Below are positions 44,659-52,037 of a stretch of 64,000 nt of DNA, one piece after another. Every line of letters starts with the position of its first letter. Position 1 is the stretch's first letter. The stretch covers positions 48,531 to 112,530 of the forward strand of contig CAZMNF010000001.1 of NCBI GenBank assembly GCA_964567595.1, in the 5' to 3' direction. Both the position numbers and the translations under genes were made by a program. Source of the DNA: an uncultured Thermotogae bacterium (GTDB lineage Bacteria > Bipolaricaulota > Bipolaricaulia > RBG-16-55-9). The notes beneath the pieces were generated by a model, which ran no database searches, was not told where the DNA came from, and was given only the letters and a program-made list of their open reading frames with translations.

Positions 44659-45348
44659 ATGAGTGAGTCGAACCGGTGCCAAGTCTGTTTCAACGACAAG
44701 TGCATCCTGCTCGACGTGAGTCGTCAGGACGTCGACTTCCGTCCCGACGAGTTCGCCACGCTGCTGCGCTACGAGAAGGGCCAGACGCTCTTCCAGGAGA
44801 ACGAGCCGGCTTACGGCTACTTCATCGTCTGCCACGGCGCCGTCAAGCTGAGCCATCACCTGGAGGATGGCCGCATCCACATCGTCGCCGTGCTCGGGCC
44901 CGGCGACTTGATCGGCATGGAGGCCCATGCCACGGGCCGGTTCCGCGTCGAGGCCGAGGCGATGGCCCCGACCGAGGTCGGCTTCGTTGACCGGAACGAG
45001 CTGCAGTCGCTGGTGGAGCGGTTCCCGGCCTTCGCGACCTCGCTCATCGAAAAGCTGACGGAGGAACTGGGCATGCTCCAGGAGCGGATCTGGGCGACGG
45101 CCCGTCCGGGCGCGTCCAGTCGACTGGCCTACCTGTTGCTCGATCTGGCCCGAACGCACGGACATGACCGCGCCGAGGGCACGGAGATCGACCTGGCGCT
45201 CACCCGCGAGGAGCTGGGAGAGATGGCCGGCGTCTCCCGCGAGACGGCCAGCCTGACGCTCAGTCGCTTTGCGGAGCGCGGCTGGATCGACGCCGATCGG
45301 CGCCGCATCGTCGTCAAGGACGCCGACTCGCTCCAGGCGATGGTGTGA
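44659..45348 (+). CDS. Crp/Fnr-family transcriptional regulator with an N-terminal Cys cluster
   Basis: 'CQVCFNDKC' at the N-terminus, a cNMP-like beta-barrel, and C-terminal HTH 'TREELGEMAGVSRETASLTLSRF'. Alternative in-frame starts are GTG 44632 and ATG 44641. Confidence 0.8.
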   Translation: MSESNRCQVCFNDKCILLDVSRQDVDFRPDEFATLLRYEKGQTLFQENEPAYGYFIVCHGAVKLSHHLEDGRIHIVAVLGPGDLIGMEAHATGRFRVEAEAMAPTEVGFVDRNELQSLVERFPAFATSLIEKLTEELGMLQERIWATARPGASSRLAYLLLDLARTHGHDRAEGTEIDLALTREELGEMAGVSRETASLTLSRFAERGWIDADRRRIVVKDADSLQAMV

Positions 45349-45367
45349 CCGCTGCTGTCCCCTTCAT

Positions 45368-45396
45368 GGGACAGTGTTAGCTATCCAACACTGCCC
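45368..45396. promoter_or_regulatory. inverted repeat CAGTGTT-N8-AACACTG (hairpin or operator) just after the crp/fnr stop
   Basis: Read from the sequence. The stem extends by three G-C pairs if one A is bulged. There is no U-tract. Confidence 0.4.
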
Positions 45397-45497
45397 TGTG
45401 GAGTCGTTCAACGCGGGCGCCCAATCGGGCGTTTAGAATGGTCCCATCCTGCGGTGATCGCTAACGGTAACCGCTTACGGACACGGGTGATCACAGG

Positions 45498-47387
45498 GTG
45501 GGCACCAGCCAACTGGAAGCGACGATTCGGCAGACGCTGGCGTCGGCGGAATCGGAGCTGCACACCGAACAATTGGCCCAAGAGCTTGGGATCGCTCGCC
45601 ACACGGCCTCCAAGTACTTGGCCATTCTGCACACGAAGGGCGAGGTTCGATGTCGGAAAGTCGGCAACGCCAAGCTCTGGAGCATCGCTCCAACGGCCGA
45701 GCCGACAACAGGGGGTGACCGGGCCTGTGCGGAGCGCGTGTTCCTGGAGCTGCATCCGCCGCTGGACGACGCGGCGGCGGTCGTGGAAGCCGAGCGGTGT
45801 CTGGACTGCGGCGGCCCCTTGTCGCCGGCGCCCTGCGTGACGGCCTGCCCCACGTCGATCGACGTGCCGCGCTTCATCCAAGAGATTCGCGAGGGGCGGC
45901 CGCTCGACGCGGCCCGCACGATCTTCGACGCCAACGTCCTGGGCGGCAGTTGTGCCCGCGTCTGCCCCGTTGAGGAGCTCTGCGAGGGCGCCTGCGTTCT
46001 GGAAACGGAAGGCCGACGGGCCGTCGACATCAGGCGCCTGCAGCGCTATGCGACCGACCGTGCTCTGGCGGCCGAGGGCCCATCGTTTGCGACCGATGCG
46101 ACCGATGCGACCGAGGCGACTGCCTCGAGAACCGACGCAGCCAGCGTGGCCGTCGTCGGGGCCGGCCCGGCCGGGCTCGGCTGCGCGGCAGAATTGGCCC
46201 GACTTGGGCATCGGGTCGTCGTGTACGAGCGACGGTCCTGCCCGGGCGGCCTGATCACCAGCGCCATCGCCCCCTACAAACAGCTCGTCGATCCGCTGCC
46301 CGACGAGGTGGCTCGCCTCGAGTCGCTCGGCGTGGCGTTCCGCTTCGGCGTGACCCTGGGCCAGGACGTCACGCTGGACGCGCTGGAGCGTCGTTACGAT
46401 GCCGTCTTCCTCGGCATCGGCCTCGGGCCGGACATCCCGGCCAACCTCCCCGGCGAGCACCTCAACGGCGTCTGGGACTCGCTCGAGTTCATCGAGCACG
46501 TCAAGGAATCGCGGTTCGACGAGCTCGACCTCGACACGCCGCTTGCCGTGATCGGCGGCGGCAACACCGCCATCGACGTCGCCCGGGAGGCCAAGCGACT
46601 CGGGGTGTCGACCGTGACCGTGCTCTATCGGCGCACGGAAGACCAGATGCCGGCCTACGACCACGAGATCGAGGAGGCCAAGGCGGAGGGCGTGGACTTC
46701 CAGTTTTTGACCAATCCGACGCGATTTGTGGGCGACGACGGCCAGGTTCGAGGCGTCGAATGCGTCGAAATGACCCTGGGCGAGCCGGACGCATCGGGCC
46801 GCCCGCGACCGGAGCCCGTTGCGGATGCCGAGTACGTCGTCGAGGCCAACACGGTCGTCAAGGCGATCGGTCAGCGGCCGTGGACCGACCGGCTCGAGGC
46901 GTGGAACCTCGACCACGACCGCGGCTGGATCGAGACCCGGCGCCGCCGCACGAATCGTCCGACGGTCTACGCCGGCGGCGACTGCGTCAACGGCGGGGCA
47001 ACGGTCGTGGAGGCCGTACGGGACGGCCGCTCGGCGGCCCGTCGCATGCACGAAGCCATCGTCGGGCAGGCCTTGCCCAAGCCGATCACGACGGTCCGGG
47101 GCGAGACCGAACAGGCCGACGAGCGGACGTACTATTCGCAGGGGGCGGGGCACTACGTCGGGACGGAGCCGCGGCTCTGCAAGGGCTGTGAGCTCTGCGT
47201 CAACAGCTGCCCCAAGGGCGTGCTCGACCTCGACGCCAAGGGCAAGATCGTCATGAGCGACCCGAGCGAGTGCGTCTTCTGCGGGGTTTGTGAAGCCCGT
47301 TGTCCCGACTTCGCCATCTGGGTCGTCAAGGACGACGAGGGCGAGCGGGCGCCCGAGCGAGAGCCCGCGGAGGTGACGCTGACATGA
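45498..47387 (+). CDS. three-domain fusion: wHTH + GltD/PreT-like FAD/NAD(P)H oxidoreductase (2x[4Fe-4S]) + KorD-like 2x[4Fe-4S] ferredoxin
   Basis: aa 1-65: 'LHTEQLAQELGIARHTASKYLAILHTKGEVRCRKVGNAKLW' (wHTH). Then 'RCLDCGG...CVTACP' and 'GSCARVCPVEELCEGAC'. Two dinucleotide folds: 'VAVVGAGPAGLGCA' and 'LAVIGGGNTAIDVA'. C-terminus: 'CKGCELCVNSCP...CVFCGVCEARCP'. GTG start. Stop overlaps the korA ATG. Confidence 0.8.
   Translation: MGTSQLEATIRQTLASAESELHTEQLAQELGIARHTASKYLAILHTKGEVRCRKVGNAKLWSIAPTAEPTTGGDRACAERVFLELHPPLDDAAAVVEAERCLDCGGPLSPAPCVTACPTSIDVPRFIQEIREGRPLDAARTIFDANVLGGSCARVCPVEELCEGACVLETEGRRAVDIRRLQRYATDRALAAEGPSFATDATDATEATASRTDAASVAVVGAGPAGLGCAAELARLGHRVVVYERRSCPGGLITSAIAPYKQLVDPLPDEVARLESLGVAFRFGVTLGQDVTLDALERRYDAVFLGIGLGPDIPANLPGEHLNGVWDSLEFIEHVKESRFDELDLDTPLAVIGGGNTAIDVAREAKRLGVSTVTVLYRRTEDQMPAYDHEIEEAKAEGVDFQFLTNPTRFVGDDGQVRGVECVEMTLGEPDASGRPRPEPVADAEYVVEANTVVKAIGQRPWTDRLEAWNLDHDRGWIETRRRRTNRPTVYAGGDCVNGGATVVEAVRDGRSAARRMHEAIVGQALPKPITTVRGETEQADERTYYSQGAGHYVGTEPRLCKGCELCVNSCPKGVLDLDAKGKIVMSDPSECVFCGVCEARCPDFAIWVVKDDEGERAPEREPAEVTLT
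46089..46115 (+). repeat. 9-nt tandem repeat (GCGACCGAT x3) in an interdomain linker
   Basis: Encodes ATD-ATD-ATE. Confidence 0.85.
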
Positions 47388-48550
47388 GCCGGGCCACTCC
47401 CACGGCGACGCCGACGCAGCAGTTGGTGCAGGGCAACGAGGCGTGCGCCTACGGCGCGCTCTACGCGGGATGTGATTTTTACGCCGGGTATCCGATCACG
47501 CCCAGCTCCGAGGTCATGGAGATCATGAGCCGCGAGCAGCCCAAGCGCGGCGGGGCGTTCATCCAGATGGAGGATGAGATCGCCTCGATCTCCGCCATCA
47601 TTGGCGCGGCTTGGACGGGCGCGAAGGCCATGACGGCCACGAGCGGGCCAGGGTTTTCGCTGATGCAGGAGGGGCTCGGCTACGCCTGCATGACGGAGAC
47701 GCCGTGCGTCATCGTCGATTCCCAGCGCGGCGGCCCGTCGACGGGGCAGCCGACCAAGCCCGCCCAAGGCGACGTCATGCAAGCAATCTGGGGCACGCAC
47801 GGCGATCATCCCATTGTCGTGCTGACGGCCTCCGACGTGCGCGCGGCGTTCGAGATGACCGTGCAGGCGTTCAACATTTCCGAACGCTTCCGCGTCCCCG
47901 TCATTCTGCTGCTCGACGAAGTCCTCTCGCACATGCGCGAGAACATGGCCTGGCCCGAGCCGGGCGAAATCGAGGTCGTCGACCGGGCACGGCCCGCGTC
48001 GTTGGAGGGCTTCGAGGCCTTCGGGGGCGCGGAGTTCGTGCCGTTCGGCGAGGGACTGCGCTTCAACGTGACCGGCCTGTCGCACGACGGCCAGGGCCAG
48101 TACATCAAAGGCAGCGAGGCGGAAGCGATGTTCCGGCGGACCATGGACCGCGTCTACGGCAACGTCGAGCAGATCGCCCTCTACGACAACGTCGAGCTTG
48201 ACGACGCCGAGTACGTCATCGTCAGCTACGGCATCACGTCGCGAGCGGCCATGAGCGCCGTGGAGCGCTTCCGCGCCGACGGCCACCGGGTCGGCCTGCT
48301 CAACCTCAAGACGCTCTGGCCCTTCCCCGACTTCCTCTTCGAACGATTCTGCGACTGCGTGAAGGGGATCCTGGTTCCCGAACTGAACCTCGGGCAAGTC
48401 GTCCGCGAGGTGAGCCGCGCGGCGGGCGAGCGGCTCGGGCGCGAGGTCGCCGTCGAGTCGCTCTCGCGGGTCGACGGCCAACTGATCACGCCCCAGCAGA
48501 TCATCGATCGGATCCGGAGTTGGATCGACGAAGGAGGGCGGCATGAGTGA
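47384..48550 (+). CDS. korA: 2-oxoacid:ferredoxin oxidoreductase, alpha subunit
   Basis: 'GNEACAYGALYAGCDFYAGYPITPSSE' and 'SGPGFSLMQEGLGYA'. Confidence 0.9.
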   Translation: MSRATPTATPTQQLVQGNEACAYGALYAGCDFYAGYPITPSSEVMEIMSREQPKRGGAFIQMEDEIASISAIIGAAWTGAKAMTATSGPGFSLMQEGLGYACMTETPCVIVDSQRGGPSTGQPTKPAQGDVMQAIWGTHGDHPIVVLTASDVRAAFEMTVQAFNISERFRVPVILLLDEVLSHMRENMAWPEPGEIEVVDRARPASLEGFEAFGGAEFVPFGEGLRFNVTGLSHDGQGQYIKGSEAEAMFRRTMDRVYGNVEQIALYDNVELDDAEYVIVSYGITSRAAMSAVERFRADGHRVGLLNLKTLWPFPDFLFERFCDCVKGILVPELNLGQVVREVSRAAGERLGREVAVESLSRVDGQLITPQQIIDRIRSWIDEGGRHE

Positions 48551-49367
48551 GCACGGCGGCCAGTACCTGCGGGCGGACTACCTGCCGACGGTCTGGTGCC
48601 CCGGCTGCGGCAACGGCGTCATCGTCAAGTCGATGGCCGAGGCGATGGCCGACGTCGGCTGGGATCCGGACCAGACGGTCGTGGTGGGCGGCATCGGGTG
48701 TTCGGGGCGGACGCCGTTCTATCTGGATGCCAACACGATGCACACCACCCACGGCCGCGCACTGGCGTTCGCCACGGGCGTCAAGATGGCCCGGCCTCGG
48801 TTCAACGTCGTCGTCACCATGGGCGACGGCGACGCCAGCGGCATCGGCGGCAACCACTTCATCCATGCCTGCCGGCGCAACATCGACCTGACCGCGATCG
48901 TGTTCGACAACTCCATCTACGGCCAAACGGGCGGTCAGCTCGCCCCGACGACGCCCACGGGCAAAGTGAGCACGACGTCGCCGCAGGGCAGCGTCGATCC
49001 GTCGTTCGATCTGTGCCAGTTGGCCGAGGGCTCGGGCGCGAGCTTCGTGGCGCGGACCTCGACATTCGATTTCCAGCAGCTGCAGGATCTCTTGGTGCGC
49101 GGCTTCCAACACCGCGGCTTTGCCCTCGTCGAGGTCATGACGACCTGTCCGACGTACTACGGCCGCATGAACGGGGTCCGCGATCCCTACGCCATGCTGC
49201 GCGAGATCGAACAAATAACGCAGGACAGCAACGGGCACGCCAACGGACATGGAGACGGAGAGCCCCTTGACCTGAATGCGCGACCGACAGGGGTCTTCGT
49301 CAATGAGTCCCGCGACGAGTACACCGACATCTATCGACGGCGCTGTGAGGAGGCGAGGTCGGGATGA
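48543..49367 (+). CDS. korB: 2-oxoacid:ferredoxin oxidoreductase, beta (TPP) subunit
   Basis: 'WCPGCGNG' and 'GDGDASGIGGNHFIHACRRN'. Confidence 0.9.
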   Translation: MSEHGGQYLRADYLPTVWCPGCGNGVIVKSMAEAMADVGWDPDQTVVVGGIGCSGRTPFYLDANTMHTTHGRALAFATGVKMARPRFNVVVTMGDGDASGIGGNHFIHACRRNIDLTAIVFDNSIYGQTGGQLAPTTPTGKVSTTSPQGSVDPSFDLCQLAEGSGASFVARTSTFDFQQLQDLLVRGFQHRGFALVEVMTTCPTYYGRMNGVRDPYAMLREIEQITQDSNGHANGHGDGEPLDLNARPTGVFVNESRDEYTDIYRRRCEEARSG

Positions 49368-49933
49368 CGACACGACGGGCTCCCGATGGGCGTGTGGAGC
49401 TGCGCCTCAGTGGCGCGGGCGGCCAAGGGCTCATCACCGCCGGCGTGATCCTTTCCGAGGCGGCCGTGCTGGACAGACGCCAGGTCGTGCAGACCCAGAG
49501 CTACGGGCCGGAGGCGCGCCTCGGCGCCAGCCGAGCCGAGGTCATCGTCGCCCGCGAGACGATCGCCTACCCGCAGGTCGTTGAGCCCGACGTCATCCTC
49601 TGTCTGTCCCAAGATTCCTTCGACAAATACATCGGCGACGCCAACGAGGAGACGCTCGTCGTCGTCGACGCCAGCAACGTCGAGGTCAACGGCTCGACAA
49701 ACGGGGCCCAAGTCTACGCATTTCCCATCACGGAGACGGCGATCGAGGTCGGTCACAAGGTCGTGGCCAACGTTGTCGCGCTCGGCGCGCTCAACGCGTT
49801 GGCCGAGGTGGTCTCTTCCGAGAGCCTGACGGAGGCCGTGCTGCGCCGCGTGCCCGATAAACACCGCGAGATGAACGAAAGGGCCATCGAAGCGGGCCAC
49901 GAGCTGGTCGCGGCGTCCGCGGCGACGTCCTAG
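49364..49933 (+). CDS. korC: 2-oxoacid:ferredoxin oxidoreductase, gamma subunit
   Basis: 'LRLSGAGGQGLITAGVIL' and 'SYGPEARLGASRAEV'. Confidence 0.85.
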   Translation: MTTRRAPDGRVELRLSGAGGQGLITAGVILSEAAVLDRRQVVQTQSYGPEARLGASRAEVIVARETIAYPQVVEPDVILCLSQDSFDKYIGDANEETLVVVDASNVEVNGSTNGAQVYAFPITETAIEVGHKVVANVVALGALNALAEVVSSESLTEAVLRRVPDKHREMNERAIEAGHELVAASAATS

Positions 49934-49950
49934 GCAGCGATCCTGATGGC

Positions 49951-50046
49951 TATCTCAAGATATCGATATCTCATACGAAAAATTCCAGAACTGCCGCAAA
50001 ATCCAGAACGTGAGCTGATTACGGGCATATCGGCCGATGATAAAGA
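49951..50046 (+). promoter_or_regulatory. AT-rich control region upstream of the GltD-like/nuo operon
   Basis: Perfect 14-bp palindrome AGATATCGATATCT at 49958-49971. TATCTCA occurs twice (49951 and 49967). Direct repeats AAAAT(T)CCAGAAC at 49979-49991 and 49998-50009. Possible extended -10 TGaTAAAGA at 50038-50046. Confidence 0.5.
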
Positions 50047-50100
50047 TCATTGGCGCCACGCGACCACGTTTGCAAACTCACCTTAGCGGAGGGGTGGACG

Positions 50101-51675
50101 ATGCCGAAGCTGACCGATTCTGAACTGAAAGAACGGCTACAGGGCCACTACGAGTACGAGCAGCTGCCCGAGCGCAAGGTCCCGCCGGAAGAGCGCATGA
50201 CGTTCGAGGAGCTGGCGCTCGGCTACGACGAGGACAGCGTTCGCGCGGAGGCCGATCGCTGCATGCAGTGCCAGGATCCGCCGTGCGTCAAGGCCTGCCC
50301 CGCGCACCTCAACGTGCCGGGCTACGTCCAAAAGATCGCCGAGGGCGACGACAAGGGCGCGCTCCAGACCATCATGGACACGTACCCCTTGCCGGCCAGC
50401 TGTGGCCGCGTCTGCTTCCATCCCTGCACCGACGTCTGCCTGCGCGGGGTCCAGGGCGAGCCGCTCAACATCCCGCGGCTGCGGCGCTTCGTCGCGGACA
50501 AAGTGAGCCAGTACGACTTGGACTACGACATCCCCGAGTCGACCGGCAAGCGGATCGCCTGCATCGGCTCCGGCCCGGCCAGTCTGTCGTGTGCTTATCA
50601 CCTGCGCCGGCGGGGTCACGACGTCGTCGTCTTTGAGAGCAATGAGAAGCCGGGCGGCGCGCTCAACACCATTCCCGACTACCGGCTGCCCAACGACGTG
50701 CTCCAGGAGGAAGTCGACGTGCTGCGCTGGCTCGGCGTTGACGTCCGCACGGACGAGGGCGTCGGCGGCGACGGCTGCATCGACGCGCTTCTGAAGGCCT
50801 ATGACGCCATCTTTATCGGCGCGGGTGCGGTCAGCTCCTGGAAGCCCGGCATGCCCGGCATCGACCTGCCCGGCAGCATCACGGGGCTCGACTTCCTGCG
50901 CGCGGCCGACCGCGGCGAGATGCCGGAATTCAACCGCGTGGCCGTCATCGGCGGCGGCGACGTCGCCATGGACGCGCTGCGGACGTCGCTGCGCCGCGCT
51001 GAGACCGTGCATTGGGTCTATCGCCGCAGCGCCGAACAGATGCCGAGCACCGAGGACGAGGTCGTCGAGCTCGGCGAGGAGGTCGTGCTCCACGACCTGG
51101 ACGAGATCGAGGACGCCTTCGTCGATCCTTACAAGGAGAACGTCCTCCATGAAGCGCGCGAGAAGCTGCTCCACTTGACGTTCGAGAAGCGCCAGGAGAT
51201 CGAGGCCGAGATCGACAAGGGCATCAAGTCGCGCGCGGTTGAGGCCATCAACCGCGAAGCCGATGAGCACGATGGCAAGCTGGTTGTCCAGCTGCTGACC
51301 AACCCGACGCAGCTCTTGGGCGAGGACCGCGTCGAGGGCATGGAGCTGCAGCGCATGGAACTCGGCCCGCCCGATGACAGCGGCCGCCGCAAGCCCCAGC
51401 CCGTGGAGGGCTCGGAGTTCGTCGTCGACGTCGACACCGTCATCTGGTGCATCGGCCAGGACGTCGACTCCAGCTGGCTCCCCGAGGACAGCGGGATCGA
51501 GCTGAAGAAGTGGGGCGAGGTGATCGCCGACGAGACCCAGCGGACGAGCCGCGAGCGCGTCTTCGCCGGGGGCGACGCCGTGCGCGGCCCCTCCAGCATG
51601 ATCGACGCGCTGGCCGACGGCATCCGCGCGGCCGACGAAATTCATGACGAGATCACCGCGGAGGTGCCCGCATGA
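50101..51675 (+). CDS. GltD/NfnB-like FAD + 2x[4Fe-4S] NAD(P)H oxidoreductase, translationally coupled to nuoA
   Basis: '[14 protein letters not shown]', '[14 protein letters not shown]', '[14 protein letters not shown]', '[13 protein letters not shown]' and 'GGDAVRG'. ATG 50101 lies 6 nt after GGAGGGGTGG. The stop shares ATGA with the nuoA start. Confidence 0.85.
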
Positions 51676-52037
51676 ACGCCTTGGGAGGCTATCTGCCGCT
51701 TTTGATGATCAGCGTCGTCGGGATCGGCATCGTCGCCGTCGTGCTCTGGCTCGGCCACAAGCTGACCCCGCCCGACGACAGCGGCGAGAAGGGCGAGACC
51801 TACGAGTGCGGCGAGAAGCCGATCGGCTCGACCCAGAAGCCGATCGACATCAAGTACTACATGTACGTGCTGCTCTTCCTCGTCATCGACGTGGAGATCG
51901 CGTTCCTGATTCCCTGGGCGATCGAGTTCCGCTCGTTCGGGCTGCTCGCCTTTATCGAGATCATGATCTTCGTCGGCATTCTGCTCCTGGCTTGGGCCTA
52001 CGCCTGGAAGGAGGGGTTCCTGAAGTGGCTCCGCTAA
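51672..52037 (+). CDS. nuoA: NADH-quinone oxidoreductase-type subunit A
   Basis: 'YECGEKP...[23 protein letters not shown]'. Confidence 0.9.

What the first reader, a model, noticed from the sequence alone, without database searches (positions are those of the whole stretch)
45498..47387. Unusual three-domain fusion: wHTH + GltD-like NAD(P)H flavoprotein + KorD-type ferredoxin, heading a korABC operon
SEEN:
- A single 629-codon frame with no internal stop.
- Residues 1-65 look like a winged helix-turn-helix (LAQELGIARHTASKYLAILHTKGEVRCRKVGNAKLW).
- Residues ~85-540 form a GltD/PreT-type module with 2x[4Fe-4S], an FAD fold and an NAD(P)H fold.
- Residues 561-603 are a 2x CxxCxxCxxxCP ferredoxin, in the position normally occupied by the OFOR delta subunit. 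The gene order is delta-alpha-beta-gamma, and the stop overlaps the korA ATG.

INFERENCE:
- Electrons from 2-oxoacid oxidation could flow through the fused ferredoxin straight to FAD and NAD(P)+.
- This would make a 2-oxoacid:NAD(P)+ oxidoreductase, functionally analogous to eukaryotic pyruvate:NADP+ oxidoreductase fusions.
- Run in reverse, it could drive NADPH-dependent reductive carboxylation.
- The wHTH could make the enzyme a redox-sensing autoregulator, or it could be a non-DNA-binding adaptor.

CAVEAT: The annotated start is GTG with a weak SD. An internal GTG (the V of 'ERVFLEL', ~45741) would remove the wHTH.
Basis: partly seen in the sequence, partly recalled or inferred. Interest (0 to 1): 0.65.

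Follow-up and report, generated by a model that had tools for sequence, protein, structure and literature searches.

The report
DNA-binding domain fused to NADPH-linked oxoacid oxidoreductase subunit
In an uncultured Bipolaricaulia bacterium, the electron-carrying subunit of a 2-oxoacid oxidoreductase, probably NADP-linked and of a known and widespread type, has gained a DNA-binding domain that most likely switches its own operon off by binding a palindrome just upstream.

Summary
45498-47387 is one 629-codon gene encoding a winged helix (wHTH), an NfnB/GltD-type Fe-S flavoprotein and a KorD ferredoxin. It overlaps korA by ATGA and heads korABC.

Two parts of the finding are ordinary:
- The flavoprotein::KorD fusion in front of korABC also occurs in Phycisphaerales, Bacillota and Gemmatimonadaceae.
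- It has a biochemical precedent, the 2-oxoglutarate:NADP+ oxidoreductase of Azoarcus evansii.

A conserved YRR motif points to NADP(H) as the cofactor.

The wHTH is the unusual part:
- It is translated and constrained: dN/dS is about 0.11, five orthologues share the GTG start, and GGTGATC forms a good Shine-Dalgarno sequence.
- It folds as a canonical DNA-binding winged helix.
- Its nearest relatives are stand-alone wHTH-GNAT proteins encoded at the same position in sister genera.

In about a dozen genomes from several families, the gene carrying this wHTH (or its operon head) is preceded by the palindrome GGTnACC-N6-GGTnACC. Here the palindrome lies at 45453-45472, just downstream of a TAGAAT -10 box and two CRP/FNR-like boxes. 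The 68 nt before the GTG are almost invariant in five genomes with dS 0.4-1.1.

Best reading: an NADP-linked 2-oxoacid (probably 2-oxoglutarate) oxidoreductase whose flavoprotein subunit doubles as the operon's autorepressor. Nothing has been tested biochemically. I class it as a new variant of a known kind.

The parts
44659..45348 (+). Crp/Fnr-family regulator gene (229 aa by homologous gene calls). It has an N-terminal C-x2-C-x4-C motif plus one more Cys. It is the candidate binder of boxes A and B.
   Evidence: Pfam cNMP_binding + HTH_Crp_2. The gene sits next to the wHTH gene in G001, G002, G006 and G007. Gene calls of 229 aa in L101-L103. The Cys motif is read.
45374..45391 (+). Box A, GTGTTAGCTATCCAACAC. 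It is a CRP/FNR-like site and is the perfect palindrome TGTGAGAAAnCTCACA in relatives.
   Evidence: Conserved in five close genomes. The same box is seen in G002, G004, G006, G024 and G035 promoters.
45397..45412 (+). Box B, TGTGGAGTCGTTCAAC. It is a degenerate TGTGA-N6-TCAC site centred about 41.5 bp upstream of the inferred transcription start.
   Evidence: Alignment. It is the perfect palindrome TGTGAGAATTCTCACA in G002. The position was computed from the sequence. The transcription start is inferred, not measured.
45434..45439 (+). Probable -10 hexamer TAGAAT. There is no -35 element, which fits an activator-dependent promoter.
   Evidence: Invariant in five genomes. TAGAATGG recurs in the G004 promoters. 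The consensus sigma-70 scan found no full promoter.
45453..45472 (+). Palindromic operator GGTGATC-GCTAAC-GGTAACC (family consensus GGTnACC-N6-GGTnACC). It is the predicted binding site of the wHTH. An overlapping weaker repeat lies at 45466-45485.
   Evidence: Background frequency is 0.0106 hits per 150 nt in this genome.
45486..45492 (+). Shine-Dalgarno sequence GGTGATC, 5 nt before the GTG start. It is also the second copy of the operator half-site.
   Evidence: Sequence; invariant core.
45498..47387 (+). The 629-aa fusion gene: wHTH, NfnB/GltD-like flavoprotein and KorD.
45498..45686 (+). Winged helix-turn-helix, residues 1-63. The recognition helix is RHTASKYLAILHT and the wing is RKVGNAKLW.
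   Evidence: AF2 pLDDT 88. Foldseek matches AbfR2, SmtB, CadC, HlyU, IclR and RbkR. dN/dS 0.11. Conserved motif in alignment A1.
45687..45740 (+). Variable Pro/Ala/Thr-rich linker, residues 64-81.
   Evidence: Length and sequence vary among homologues. pLDDT is below 50. dN/dS 0.29-0.46.
45741..46070 (+). N-terminal 2x[4Fe-4S] domain (Fer4_20) with eight invariant Cys: C101, C104, C113, C117, C152, C156, C162, C166.
   Evidence: Pfam, invariant columns, alignment to Pyrococcus NfnI.
46143..47027 (+). FAD and NAD(P)H Rossmann domains. The YRR motif (Y377-R379) lies at 46626-46634.
   Evidence: Pfam Pyr_redox_2. Nearest solved structures are NfnB chains 5jca_L and 4ylf_B. YRR is invariant, and its meaning comes from PMC7596348.
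47166..47318 (+). KorD-type 2x[4Fe-4S] ferredoxin domain, residues 557-607.
   Evidence: Pfam Fer4_7. Matches the OGOR delta chain 8ys5_D. It is 49-58% identical to stand-alone korD before korA in relatives.
47384..48550 (+). korA (alpha subunit).
   Evidence: POR_N + PFOR_II. NF006412 scores 511 bits against a cut-off of 411. PDB matches 1yd7, 8ys5_A and 6n2n_A.
48543..49367 (+). korB (beta subunit, TPP-binding).
   Evidence: TPP_enzyme_C. PDB 8ys5_C, E = 3e-74.
49364..49933 (+). korC (gamma subunit).
   Evidence: POR family.

Best explanation
The operon encodes a four-polypeptide 2-oxoacid oxidoreductase, most likely acting on 2-oxoglutarate. Its delta (ferredoxin) subunit is fused to an NfnB/GltD-type Fe-S flavoprotein.

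Inferred electron path: TPP and the [4Fe-4S] cluster of KorA/KorB, then the two clusters of the KorD domain, then the two clusters of the Fer4_20 domain, then FAD, then NADP+. That gives 2-oxoacid + CoA + NADP+ -> acyl-CoA + CO2 + NADPH, as in Azoarcus evansii KGOR.

In this genus the same polypeptide also carries, on a flexible linker, the winged-helix domain of a small family of autoregulated transcription factors. That family is otherwise found as wHTH-GNAT proteins encoded at the same position. As part of a dimeric assembly, this domain binds the palindrome GGTGATC-N6-GGTAACC at 45453-45472. The palindrome lies just downstream of the -10 box of an FNR/CRP-activated promoter, so binding would repress the operon.

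Shown: gene and domain anatomy, synteny, purifying selection, fold, and co-occurrence of the wHTH with the palindrome.

Inferred: NADP+ as acceptor, the substrate, DNA binding, repression, and any link between enzyme state and DNA binding.
For: Anatomy.

KorD orthology and the history of the fusion:
- Order-level relatives have gltD (455 aa), then a por-like OFOR (2-oxoacid:ferredoxin oxidoreductase), then a separate korD, then korABC.
- G006 has a separate wHTH-GNAT ORF directly before GltD::KorD-korABC.
- G002 has a wHTH-GNAT-GltD fusion.

All eight wHTH-GltD-KorD homologues examined are followed by kor genes: korA-korB-korC where the contig reaches that far, and at least korA otherwise.

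The flavoprotein::KorD + korABC arrangement also occurs in Phycisphaerales, Bacillota and Gemmatimonadaceae.

The core is nearest to NfnB (5jca_L, E = 2e-89), with the Cys ligands aligned.

YRR is invariant and marks NADP(H) use in DsrL-2 (PMC7596348).

The KGOR subunit of A. evansii is classed in this flavoprotein superfamily (PMC10134865).

wHTH:
- dN/dS 0.105-0.125 at dS 0.43-1.1.
- Same GTG start in five orthologues.
- Confident winged-helix model matching DNA-binding regulators.
- Relatives pass the HTH_11 and FaeA cut-offs.

Operator:
- The palindrome lies roughly 25-70 nt upstream of the wHTH-family gene in G000, G001, L101-L103, G002 (two copies), G006, G009, G020, G024, G035 and L105. 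The right half is visible in G007, and in G004 the palindrome sits at the operon head.
- Background is 0.0106 per 150 nt.
- All 0-1-mismatch hits are in wHTH-bearing genomes, and none occur in the 17 wHTH-less g10 genomes.
- 66 of the 68 nt before the GTG are invariant in five genomes.
- In G009 the operator follows a textbook TTGACA-17-TATACT promoter by 10 nt.
Against: - No biochemical or expression data could be obtained.
- HTH_11 is below Pfam's cut-off in this protein itself (21.5-22.8 bits against 25).
- The consensus promoter scan found no sigma-70 promoter in the leader, so the -10 box and transcription start are assigned by eye and by conservation.
- wHTH presence and operator presence are both largely confined to the same related families. 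The correlation is therefore partly phylogenetic, and the adjacent Crp/Fnr gene shows a similar distribution.
- The second operator in this genome (G000:C7:15273-15292) is degenerate in the sister species G001. A regulon beyond autoregulation is therefore shaky.
- The operator was not found before G006 copy 2, G014 or L106.
- The invariant leader could also form a -28 kcal/mol hairpin that hides the SD and the GTG.
- The full-length model is poor (pLDDT 65), so domain packing is unknown.
- Orthology to A. evansii KorC was not tested, because neither the sequence nor the paper was available.
Confidence: 0.6

Rival explanations
1. The wHTH is a leftover of a gene fusion, or a protein-protein adaptor, and no longer binds DNA. 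The palindrome would be the site of another factor, for example the neighbouring Crp/Fnr-family protein or an unidentified regulator.
For: HTH_11 scores below its cut-off here. The Crp/Fnr gene is equally syntenic. Winged helices can serve non-DNA roles; for example, a methyltransferase dimerisation domain is among the Foldseek hits (4a6d).
Against: dN/dS of 0.11 is as strict as for the catalytic core. The recognition-helix motif RHTAxKYL and the wing GNAKLW are conserved. The palindrome follows the wHTH gene even where no Crp gene or GltD is adjacent (G009, G020, G024). From established knowledge of the family, Crp/Fnr proteins recognise TGTGA/TTGAT-type sites, and such sites are separately present as boxes A and B.
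Confidence: 0.15
2. The flavoprotein is not a plain NADP+ reductase. It would keep NfnB-like electron-bifurcating chemistry, or work in reverse. With a second, unidentified partner it would couple NADPH to low-potential electrons for reductive carboxylation (2-oxoacid synthesis).
For: The closest solved relatives are bifurcating NfnB subunits. In G004 and L104 the same fusion sits in an operon with HdrA/MvhD- and HdrBC-like genes. This genome carries three further GltD modules on OFORs.
Against: No NfnA-like or Hdr-like gene lies in this operon. GltD and DsrL relatives work without bifurcation (PMC7596348). From my own recollection of Ebenau-Jehle et al. 2003, the KGOR precedent simply reduces NADP+.
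Confidence: 0.15
3. The invariant 68-nt leader acts mainly as RNA. A hairpin would pair the two GGUGAUC copies and the start codon, giving translational control. This is not exclusive of a DNA operator.
For: Consensus fold of -27.7 kcal/mol that sequesters the SD and the GTG. The conservation extends beyond the 20-bp palindrome.
Against: There is no covariation, with 0 compensatory pairs, and no Rfam family matches. In other genera only the palindrome, the -10 box and the CRP-like boxes are retained, while the rest of the leader differs. The extra conservation can instead be explained by an overlapping second operator repeat.
Confidence: 0.15
4. Translation also, or only, starts at the internal GTG (V81, about 45738). 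This would give a wHTH-less enzyme subunit like those of other phyla.
For: wHTH-less homologues begin a few residues upstream of this point (P0017). A GGAG lies 3 nt before this GTG.
Against: The codon is GTC, GCG or GTT in orthologues, and the GGAG is not conserved. The wHTH codons are under strong purifying selection. A good SD precedes GTG 45498.
Confidence: 0.1

Closest known systems
2-oxoglutarate:NADP+ oxidoreductase (KGOR, KorABC) of Azoarcus evansii (Ebenau-Jehle, Boll and Fuchs 2003, J Bacteriol 185:6119). Its flavoprotein subunit is classed in the GltD/NfnB superfamily in PMC10134865.
   Same: It is a TPP-dependent 2-oxoacid oxidoreductase. It carries its own FAD/Fe-S subunit of the GltD/NfnB type and is encoded with the kor genes. 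NADP(H) is the likely partner here, judged from the YRR motif.
   Different: The Azoarcus enzyme is the two-subunit KorAB type plus a flavoprotein (from my own recollection). Here the enzyme is the four-part delta-alpha-beta-gamma type, with the flavoprotein fused to delta. The known enzyme has no DNA-binding domain. Sequence orthology was not tested.
DsrL (NAD(P)H:acceptor oxidoreductase of dissimilatory sulfite reductase; PMC7596348)
   Same: Same domain order: an N-terminal 2x[4Fe-4S] domain, FAD and NAD(P) Rossmann folds, a linker, then a C-terminal 2x[4Fe-4S] ferredoxin. It has the YRR NADP(H) motif, as in DsrL-2.
   Different: DsrL is defined by linkage to dsrAB, and the authors explicitly excluded look-alikes linked to OFOR genes. 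Its linker is about 100 aa, against about 36 aa here. It has no wHTH.
[quoted passage not shown]
   Same: It is the closest solved relative of the flavoprotein core (E = 2e-89). The Cys ligand pattern and the CEGAC motif align.
   Different: No NfnA partner is present in the operon. A ferredoxin domain is fused in place of free ferredoxin. Bifurcation is not implied.
Enzyme-repressor fusions ('trigger enzymes'): BirA (HTH_11 + biotin ligase), PutA (DNA-binding domain + flavoenzyme) and RbkR (wHTH + riboflavin kinase; PDB 5trd)
   Same: An N-terminal DNA-binding domain on a metabolic enzyme, which controls the genes of its own pathway. RbkR is among the structural matches of the wHTH.
   Different: The partner here is an Fe-S flavoprotein subunit of a multi-subunit OFOR. 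I found no such case in the held literature. Whether enzyme state controls DNA binding is unknown.
Eukaryotic pyruvate:NADP+ oxidoreductase (Euglena, Cryptosporidium)
   Same: Functional analogy only: an OFOR with a built-in NADP+-reducing module.
   Different: PNO fuses a single-chain PFOR to a cytochrome-P450-reductase-like flavodoxin/FNR module. Here the module is of the Pyr_redox_2/Fer4_20 type.

Membership tests
OFOR delta subunit (KorD/OorD) | Two CxxCxxCxxxCP [4Fe-4S] motifs in about 60 residues | tested here: met
   C561/564/567/571-P and C592/595/598/602-P. Pfam Fer4_7 at 44.6 bits against a cut-off of 27.
OFOR delta subunit (KorD/OorD) | Encoded directly 5' of korA in delta-alpha-beta-gamma order, and orthologous to stand-alone korD | tested here: met
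   ATGA overlap with korA. A separate korD, 49-58% identical, sits at the same place in L015-L020.
OFOR delta subunit (KorD/OorD) | Passes the curated NCBIfam OorD model | tested here: not met
   NF007205 scores 45.9 bits against a cut-off of 93. It is a homologue but not an equivalog. PDB 8ys5_D gives E = 1.3e-9.
GltD/NfnB-type Fe-S flavoprotein | Fer4_20 domain with Cys ligands for two clusters, plus an FAD fold and an NAD(P)H fold | tested here: met
   Pfam, eight invariant Cys, alignment to NfnI.
Glutamate synthase small subunit proper (GltD/GltA) | Passes the curated equivalog models and is partnered with a GltB large subunit | tested here: not met
   TIGR01316 scores 344.5 against 471.75, and TIGR01317 scores 185 against 447.7. 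The neighbours are kor genes, not gltB.
NADP+-linked 2-oxoglutarate oxidoreductase (KGOR type) | Flavoprotein subunit of the GltD/NfnB family encoded together with the TPP subunits | tested here: met
   Classification of the KGOR subunit comes from PMC10134865.
NADP+-linked 2-oxoglutarate oxidoreductase (KGOR type) | 2-oxoglutarate- and CoA-dependent reduction of NADP+; FAD and TPP content | not testable with these tools
   The YRR motif only suggests NADP(H). The substrate is guessed from the nearest solved OGORs.
NADP+-linked 2-oxoglutarate oxidoreductase (KGOR type) | Sequence orthology to the A. evansii/Aromatoleum flavoprotein subunit | not tested
   The sequence and the 2003 paper were not available in the tools.
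Winged-helix transcription regulators (HTH_11-like) | Three-helix bundle plus a beta-hairpin wing | tested here: met
   AF2: H3-16, H23-30, H34-46, E50-55, E58-63, pLDDT 88. Foldseek TM 0.6-0.79 to AbfR2, SmtB, HlyU and IclR.
Winged-helix transcription regulators (HTH_11-like) | Passes Pfam's HTH_11 gathering score | tested here: not met
   21.5-22.8 bits against 25 for this protein. Its homologues do pass: 31.4 bits for the G006 wHTH-GNAT protein and 28.0 bits for P0126.
Winged-helix transcription regulators (HTH_11-like) | Palindromic operator in front of its own gene (autoregulation) | tested here: met
   GGTnACC-N6-GGTnACC upstream of the wHTH gene or operon head in about 12 genomes, against 0.0106 expected per 150 nt.
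Winged-helix transcription regulators (HTH_11-like) | Sequence-specific DNA binding | not testable with these tools
   Needs EMSA or footprinting.
DsrL | Linked to dsrAB and not linked to OFOR genes; linker of about 100 aa (criteria of PMC7596348) | tested here: not met
   The gene is translationally coupled to korA. The linker spans residues 521-556, about 36 aa.
NfnAB transhydrogenase | An NfnA ([2Fe-2S]/FAD) partner encoded alongside | tested here: not met
   The operon holds only the fusion gene and korABC. The rest of the genome was not searched for nfnA.
Eukaryotic-type pyruvate:NADP+ oxidoreductase | PFOR fused to a flavodoxin/FNR (CPR-like) module | tested here: not met
   No Flavodoxin, FAD_binding_1 or NAD_binding_1 hits. 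The module is Fer4_20 + Pyr_redox_2.

The most novel reading that the evidence does not exclude
The protein would be a true redox 'trigger enzyme'. The reduction state of its FAD and Fe-S chain (set by 2-oxoacid supply and the NADPH/NADP+ ratio), or its assembly into the Kor complex, would directly switch the tethered wHTH on and off the GGTnACC-N6-GGTnACC operator. The catalytic subunit itself would then report metabolic flux to the promoter. This would be a PutA-like logic not yet described for an Fe-S flavoprotein or for any OFOR. The sensor module would have been swapped in evolution from an acyl-CoA-binding GNAT domain to the flavoprotein.
Probability: 0.25. Interest if true: 0.8.

Novelty: new variant of a known kind. 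Interest (0 to 1): 0.55.

Why it matters
The enzyme part adds to evidence that OFORs hard-wired to NADP(H) through NfnB/GltD-type flavoproteins are common in uncultured phyla. Annotation gives them only generic names such as 'FAD-dependent oxidoreductase', 'PreT' or 'glutamate synthase small chain'. This changes how ferredoxin and NADPH budgets should be reconstructed for such genomes. This one genome carries at least four such pairings.

The regulatory part gives a concrete, cheaply testable system: a 63-residue winged helix, a defined 20-bp operator, and a natural series of architectures (stand-alone wHTH-GNAT, wHTH-GNAT-GltD, wHTH-GltD, wHTH-GltD-KorD). The series shows a transcription factor being absorbed into the enzyme it regulates. 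If enzyme state controls DNA binding, it would be a new kind of redox sensor.

Tried and rejected
- Rfam scan of the leader found only noise.
- RNAalifold of the leader gives a stable hairpin but no covariation, so it is kept only as a rival.
- The sigma-70/terminator consensus scan of 45300-45520 found nothing.
- BLAST of the 70-nt leader against 41 relatives found it only in this genus. However, weak partial hits led to the operator in G004.
- Full-length AlphaFold2 with an 18-sequence alignment gave pLDDT 65, too poor for domain packing, so no fold search was run on it.
- The Ebenau-Jehle 2003 paper and two reviews are not held. PMC9765128 and PMC5736913 gave nothing on KorC beyond a 'korAB and bzdV' mention.
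- The 2026 PFOR-diversity review does not mention GltD/NfnB fusions or HTH domains.
- A search for HTH + NfnB papers found nothing relevant.
- The listing of cluster members gave no organism names.
- The idea that the operator defines a stable regulon including the gltD-por operon was weakened, because the G000:C7 site is degenerate in G001.
- The G014:C18 operator-like site lies before unrelated genes (enoyl-CoA hydratase and a molybdenum hydroxylase). It was set aside as possibly a chance match.
- No operator lies upstream of the GltD2-nuo operon at 49934-50100.


Full report
**1. Observation**

The frame 45498..47387 (+) is open for 629 codons from a GTG.

Pfam places four domains:
- a weak HTH_11 at residues 9-48 (21.5 bits against a cut-off of 25);
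- Fer4_20 at 82-191;
- Pyr_redox_2 at 216-510;
- a dicluster ferredoxin (Fer4_7) at 561-603.

The two CxxCxxCxxxCP motifs, the GxGxxG FAD fold and the GGGNTAxD NAD(P)H fold are visible in the translation. The TGA stop overlaps the korA ATG as ATGA, with GGAGGTGA a few bases upstream.

KorA (POR_N + PFOR_II), KorB (TPP_enzyme_C) and KorC (the gamma subunit, POR family) follow with overlapping junctions. The description is therefore correct.

**2. Organism and relatives**

The nearest database protein (84% identity) is from a 'Candidatus Bipolaricaulia bacterium' MAG. The assembly is 2.1 Mb in 103 contigs.

Full-length homologues that include the N-terminal domain exist down to about 50% identity. 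Every one whose context I fetched is followed by kor genes, as far as each contig reaches: G001, G004 and the contigs encoding P0004, P0006, P0009, P0011, P0015 and P0020.

**3. The start codon and the wHTH are real**

- Five close orthologues all begin with GTG at the same position.
- GGTGATC lies 5 nt upstream of the GTG. From my own knowledge, this matches the usual 16S rRNA 3' end.
- Codons 2-62 have dN/dS of 0.105-0.125 at dS 0.43-1.1. That is at least as constrained as the flavoprotein core, which has 0.15-0.19.
- The internal GTG at V81 is GTC, GCG or GTT in orthologues, and its GGAG is not conserved.
- AlphaFold2 on a 16-sequence alignment gives a confident helix-helix-helix-strand-strand winged helix (pLDDT 88).
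- The best structural matches are DNA-binding regulators: AbfR2, SmtB, CadC, HlyU, IclR, and also RbkR, a wHTH-kinase fusion.
- The following linker (residues 64-81) varies in length and sequence and is modelled as disordered.

**4. The flavoprotein-KorD part is ordinary**

The C-terminal ferredoxin matches the delta chain of a solved 2-oxoglutarate oxidoreductase (8ys5_D).

In order-level relatives the layout is gltD (about 455 aa, 59-61% identical to our core), a second por-like OFOR, a separate korD (49-58% identical to our C-terminus), then korABC. The fusion therefore joins GltD to the genuine KorD, after loss of the intervening por genes.

The same flavoprotein::KorD fusion in front of korABC, without any wHTH, occurs in Phycisphaerales, Bacillota and Gemmatimonadaceae genomes. 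By length and domain content it also appears among many further hits, some of them named as Fimbriimonadales.

The core is closest to the NfnB subunits of Nfn transhydrogenases (5jca_L at 2e-89, and 4ylf_B), then to GltD and dihydropyrimidine dehydrogenase. The cluster ligands align. It fails the curated glutamate-synthase models.

The invariant Y377-R378-R379 corresponds to the YRR motif. Loeffler et al. link this motif to strict NADP(H) use in DsrL-2. The same paper notes that DsrL-like genes linked to OFOR genes exist and were excluded from their analysis (PMC7596348).

A 2023 paper classes a subunit of the Azoarcus evansii 2-oxoglutarate:NADP+ oxidoreductase in this flavoprotein superfamily (PMC10134865). 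From my own recollection, that enzyme was purified in 2003 and contains FAD, TPP and Fe-S. It is the closest biochemical precedent. The original paper was not available to me.

KorA and KorB are nearest to solved 2-oxoglutarate or 2-keto acid enzymes (1yd7, 8ys5, 6n2n). 2-oxoglutarate is therefore the best guess for the substrate, but no more than that.

**5. Where the wHTH comes from**

A profile search of 1.84 billion representative proteins shows that the closest relatives of this wHTH are:
- wHTH-GNAT proteins of 228-283 aa;
- a wHTH-GNAT-GltD fusion of about 706 aa;
- the present fusion.

In genome G006 (same family), a 252-aa wHTH-GNAT ORF lies between the Crp/Fnr gene and a 556-aa GltD::KorD gene, overlapping the latter by 22 nt. 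G002 has wHTH-GNAT-GltD in one 715-aa protein. G035 has wHTH-GltD of 540 aa. This genus and G004 have wHTH-GltD-KorD.

Among 41 relatives, strong wHTH matches occur in 11 genomes. None occurs in the 17 genomes of genus g10, which have the gltD-por-korDABC layout. In G000 the fused copy is the only one.

**6. The operator**

Sixty-six of the 68 nt before the GTG are invariant across five genomes whose synonymous divergence is 0.4-1.1.

Comparison with more distant promoters isolates four shared elements:
- two CRP/FNR-like boxes, which are perfect TGTGAGAAnnCTCACA palindromes in G002, G006 and G024; here they lie at 45374-45391 and 45397-45412 and are degenerate;
- a -10 box, TAGAAT (45434-45439);
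- a 20-bp palindrome, GGTnACC-N6-GGTnACC (45453-45472).

The palindrome lies roughly 25-70 nt upstream of the wHTH-family gene, whatever that gene is fused to. This holds in G000, G001, three metagenomic contigs, G002 (both copies), G006, G009, G020, G024, G035 and L105. In G007 only the right half is visible, beside a masked stretch. In G004 the wHTH gene is internal to a longer operon, and the palindrome sits at the operon head.

Its background frequency in this genome is 0.0106 per 150 nt. With a stricter pattern, all hits with 0-1 mismatch fall in wHTH-bearing genomes, and the 2-mismatch hits elsewhere are at the level of the reversed-pattern control.

In G009 the palindrome follows a textbook TTGACA-17-TATACT promoter by 10 nt. 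That is a repressor position.

The natural assignment has two parts. The Crp/Fnr-family neighbour binds the TGTGA-type boxes; from established knowledge, this is what that family recognises. The wHTH binds the palindrome. The Crp/Fnr protein also carries an FNR-like Cys motif. This assignment is an inference. Both regulators and both kinds of site are concentrated in the same families, so phylogeny confounds the correlation.

**7. Limits and contrary data**

- The consensus promoter scan finds no sigma-70 promoter in the leader. This fits an activator-dependent promoter but does not prove one.
- The leader can fold into a hairpin that hides the SD and the GTG, without covariation, and there is no Rfam match.
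- A perfect palindrome also precedes a second operon in this genome (G000:C7:15273-15292). That operon encodes three more GltD-OFOR pairings. A palindrome also precedes a gltD paralogue in G004. However, the G000:C7 site is degenerate in the sister species G001, so control beyond autoregulation is uncertain.
- No operator precedes the GltD2-nuo operon.

**8. Mechanism proposed**

Shown: the anatomy, the synteny, the constraint, the fold and the operator co-occurrence.

Inferred, enzyme: KorAB oxidises a 2-oxoacid. Electrons pass through the KorD-domain clusters and the Fer4_20 clusters to FAD, and then to NADP+.

Inferred, regulation: OFOR cores of all subunit types dimerise (PMC13768988). The two copies of the fusion protein in a dimeric holoenzyme, or in a free dimer, would then place two winged helices on the palindrome. 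The palindrome overlaps the early transcribed region, so binding would repress the operon. An FNR-like activator would act from about -41.5 and about -63.5.

Whether flavin or cluster redox state, NADPH, or complex assembly modulates binding is open. The ancestral partner of the wHTH is a GNAT domain with an intact acyl-CoA-binding motif (GLGIGRRL; read). This suggests that the original signal was an acyl-CoA, which is the product of the OFOR.

**9. Verdict**

The enzyme is a new member of a known kind, the KGOR-type NADP-linked OFOR. The covalent attachment of its autoregulator is a new variant that I could not find described. Interest is moderate, and higher if enzyme state proves to gate DNA binding.

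Earlier notes of this scan on other genomes reached the same closest-known for flavoprotein-ferredoxin fusions with korAB. They are AI notes and I do not count them as evidence.

Noticed in passing
G000:C7:1-15300 (locus L110), minus strand: A second large operon in the same genome sits behind the perfect palindrome GGTGACCGCTAGCGGTCACC. It encodes three more OFORs, each with a GltD/NfnB module: GltD (455 aa) + PorGD-PorA-(PorB); PorG + GltD::ferredoxin (586 aa) + PorA + PorB; and a 997-aa IorA-like POR_N+TPP_C protein fused to a GltD module. A 598-aa ORF between them has no Pfam hit. Open frames of about 990-1500 aa carrying a GltD-like match are common across the order.
   Followed up: partly
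window 50050-52037: A second GltD-like flavoprotein (541 aa, with an insertion around residues 350-415) overlaps nuoA by ATGA. The adjacency of GltD2 and nuoA is conserved in G001, G035 and the P0006 and P0009 contigs. It is covered by a separate finding of this scan.
   Followed up: no
window 44659-45348: The Crp/Fnr-family regulator has an N-terminal C-x2-C-x4-C motif plus a Cys in the barrel, which is FNR-like. The pattern is conserved in the G006 homologue. It sits next to the wHTH gene in G001, G002, G006 and G007. Its likely sites are the TGTGAG-N4-CTCACA boxes.
   Followed up: partly
L104 (contig encoding P0011) and G004:C109 (L108 + L012): In these relatives the wHTH-GltD-KorD gene lies inside a longer operon: korDABC#2, then an HdrA-like protein of 819 aa with an MvhD/FlpD domain, then an HdrBC-like CCG protein, then wHTH-GltD-KorD, then korABC. 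This hints at an Hdr-type electron-bifurcating link between two OFORs.
   Followed up: no
L110:15100-15260 and L119 (G001:C50), leader of the gltD-por operon: About 130 nt of 5' leader are strongly conserved between G000 and G001 (TCCTGACCCGGATCATGGTG ... GATAATrAGACCTGGAATTAAG ... GGAAGGAAGG), although the operator upstream is not. The function is unknown.
   Followed up: no
P0124, P0128, P0131, P0139 and others: The wHTH profile also hits proteins of 380-900 aa made of 5-11 tandem copies of a similar winged helix. Their nature was not examined.
   Followed up: no
window 45466-45492: Half-site-like repeats continue after the main palindrome (GGTAACC GCTTAC GGACACG GGTGATC) and run into the SD sequence. 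This may be a second, weaker operator, and it may explain why the whole leader is invariant.
   Followed up: partly
G014:C18:263182-263201 (L114): An operator-like site, GGTGACCGCTTATGGTGACC (1 mismatch), lies upstream of an enoyl-CoA hydratase and a molybdenum hydroxylase (xanthine dehydrogenase family) cluster in a wHTH-bearing genome. It could be chance or a further target.
   Followed up: partly
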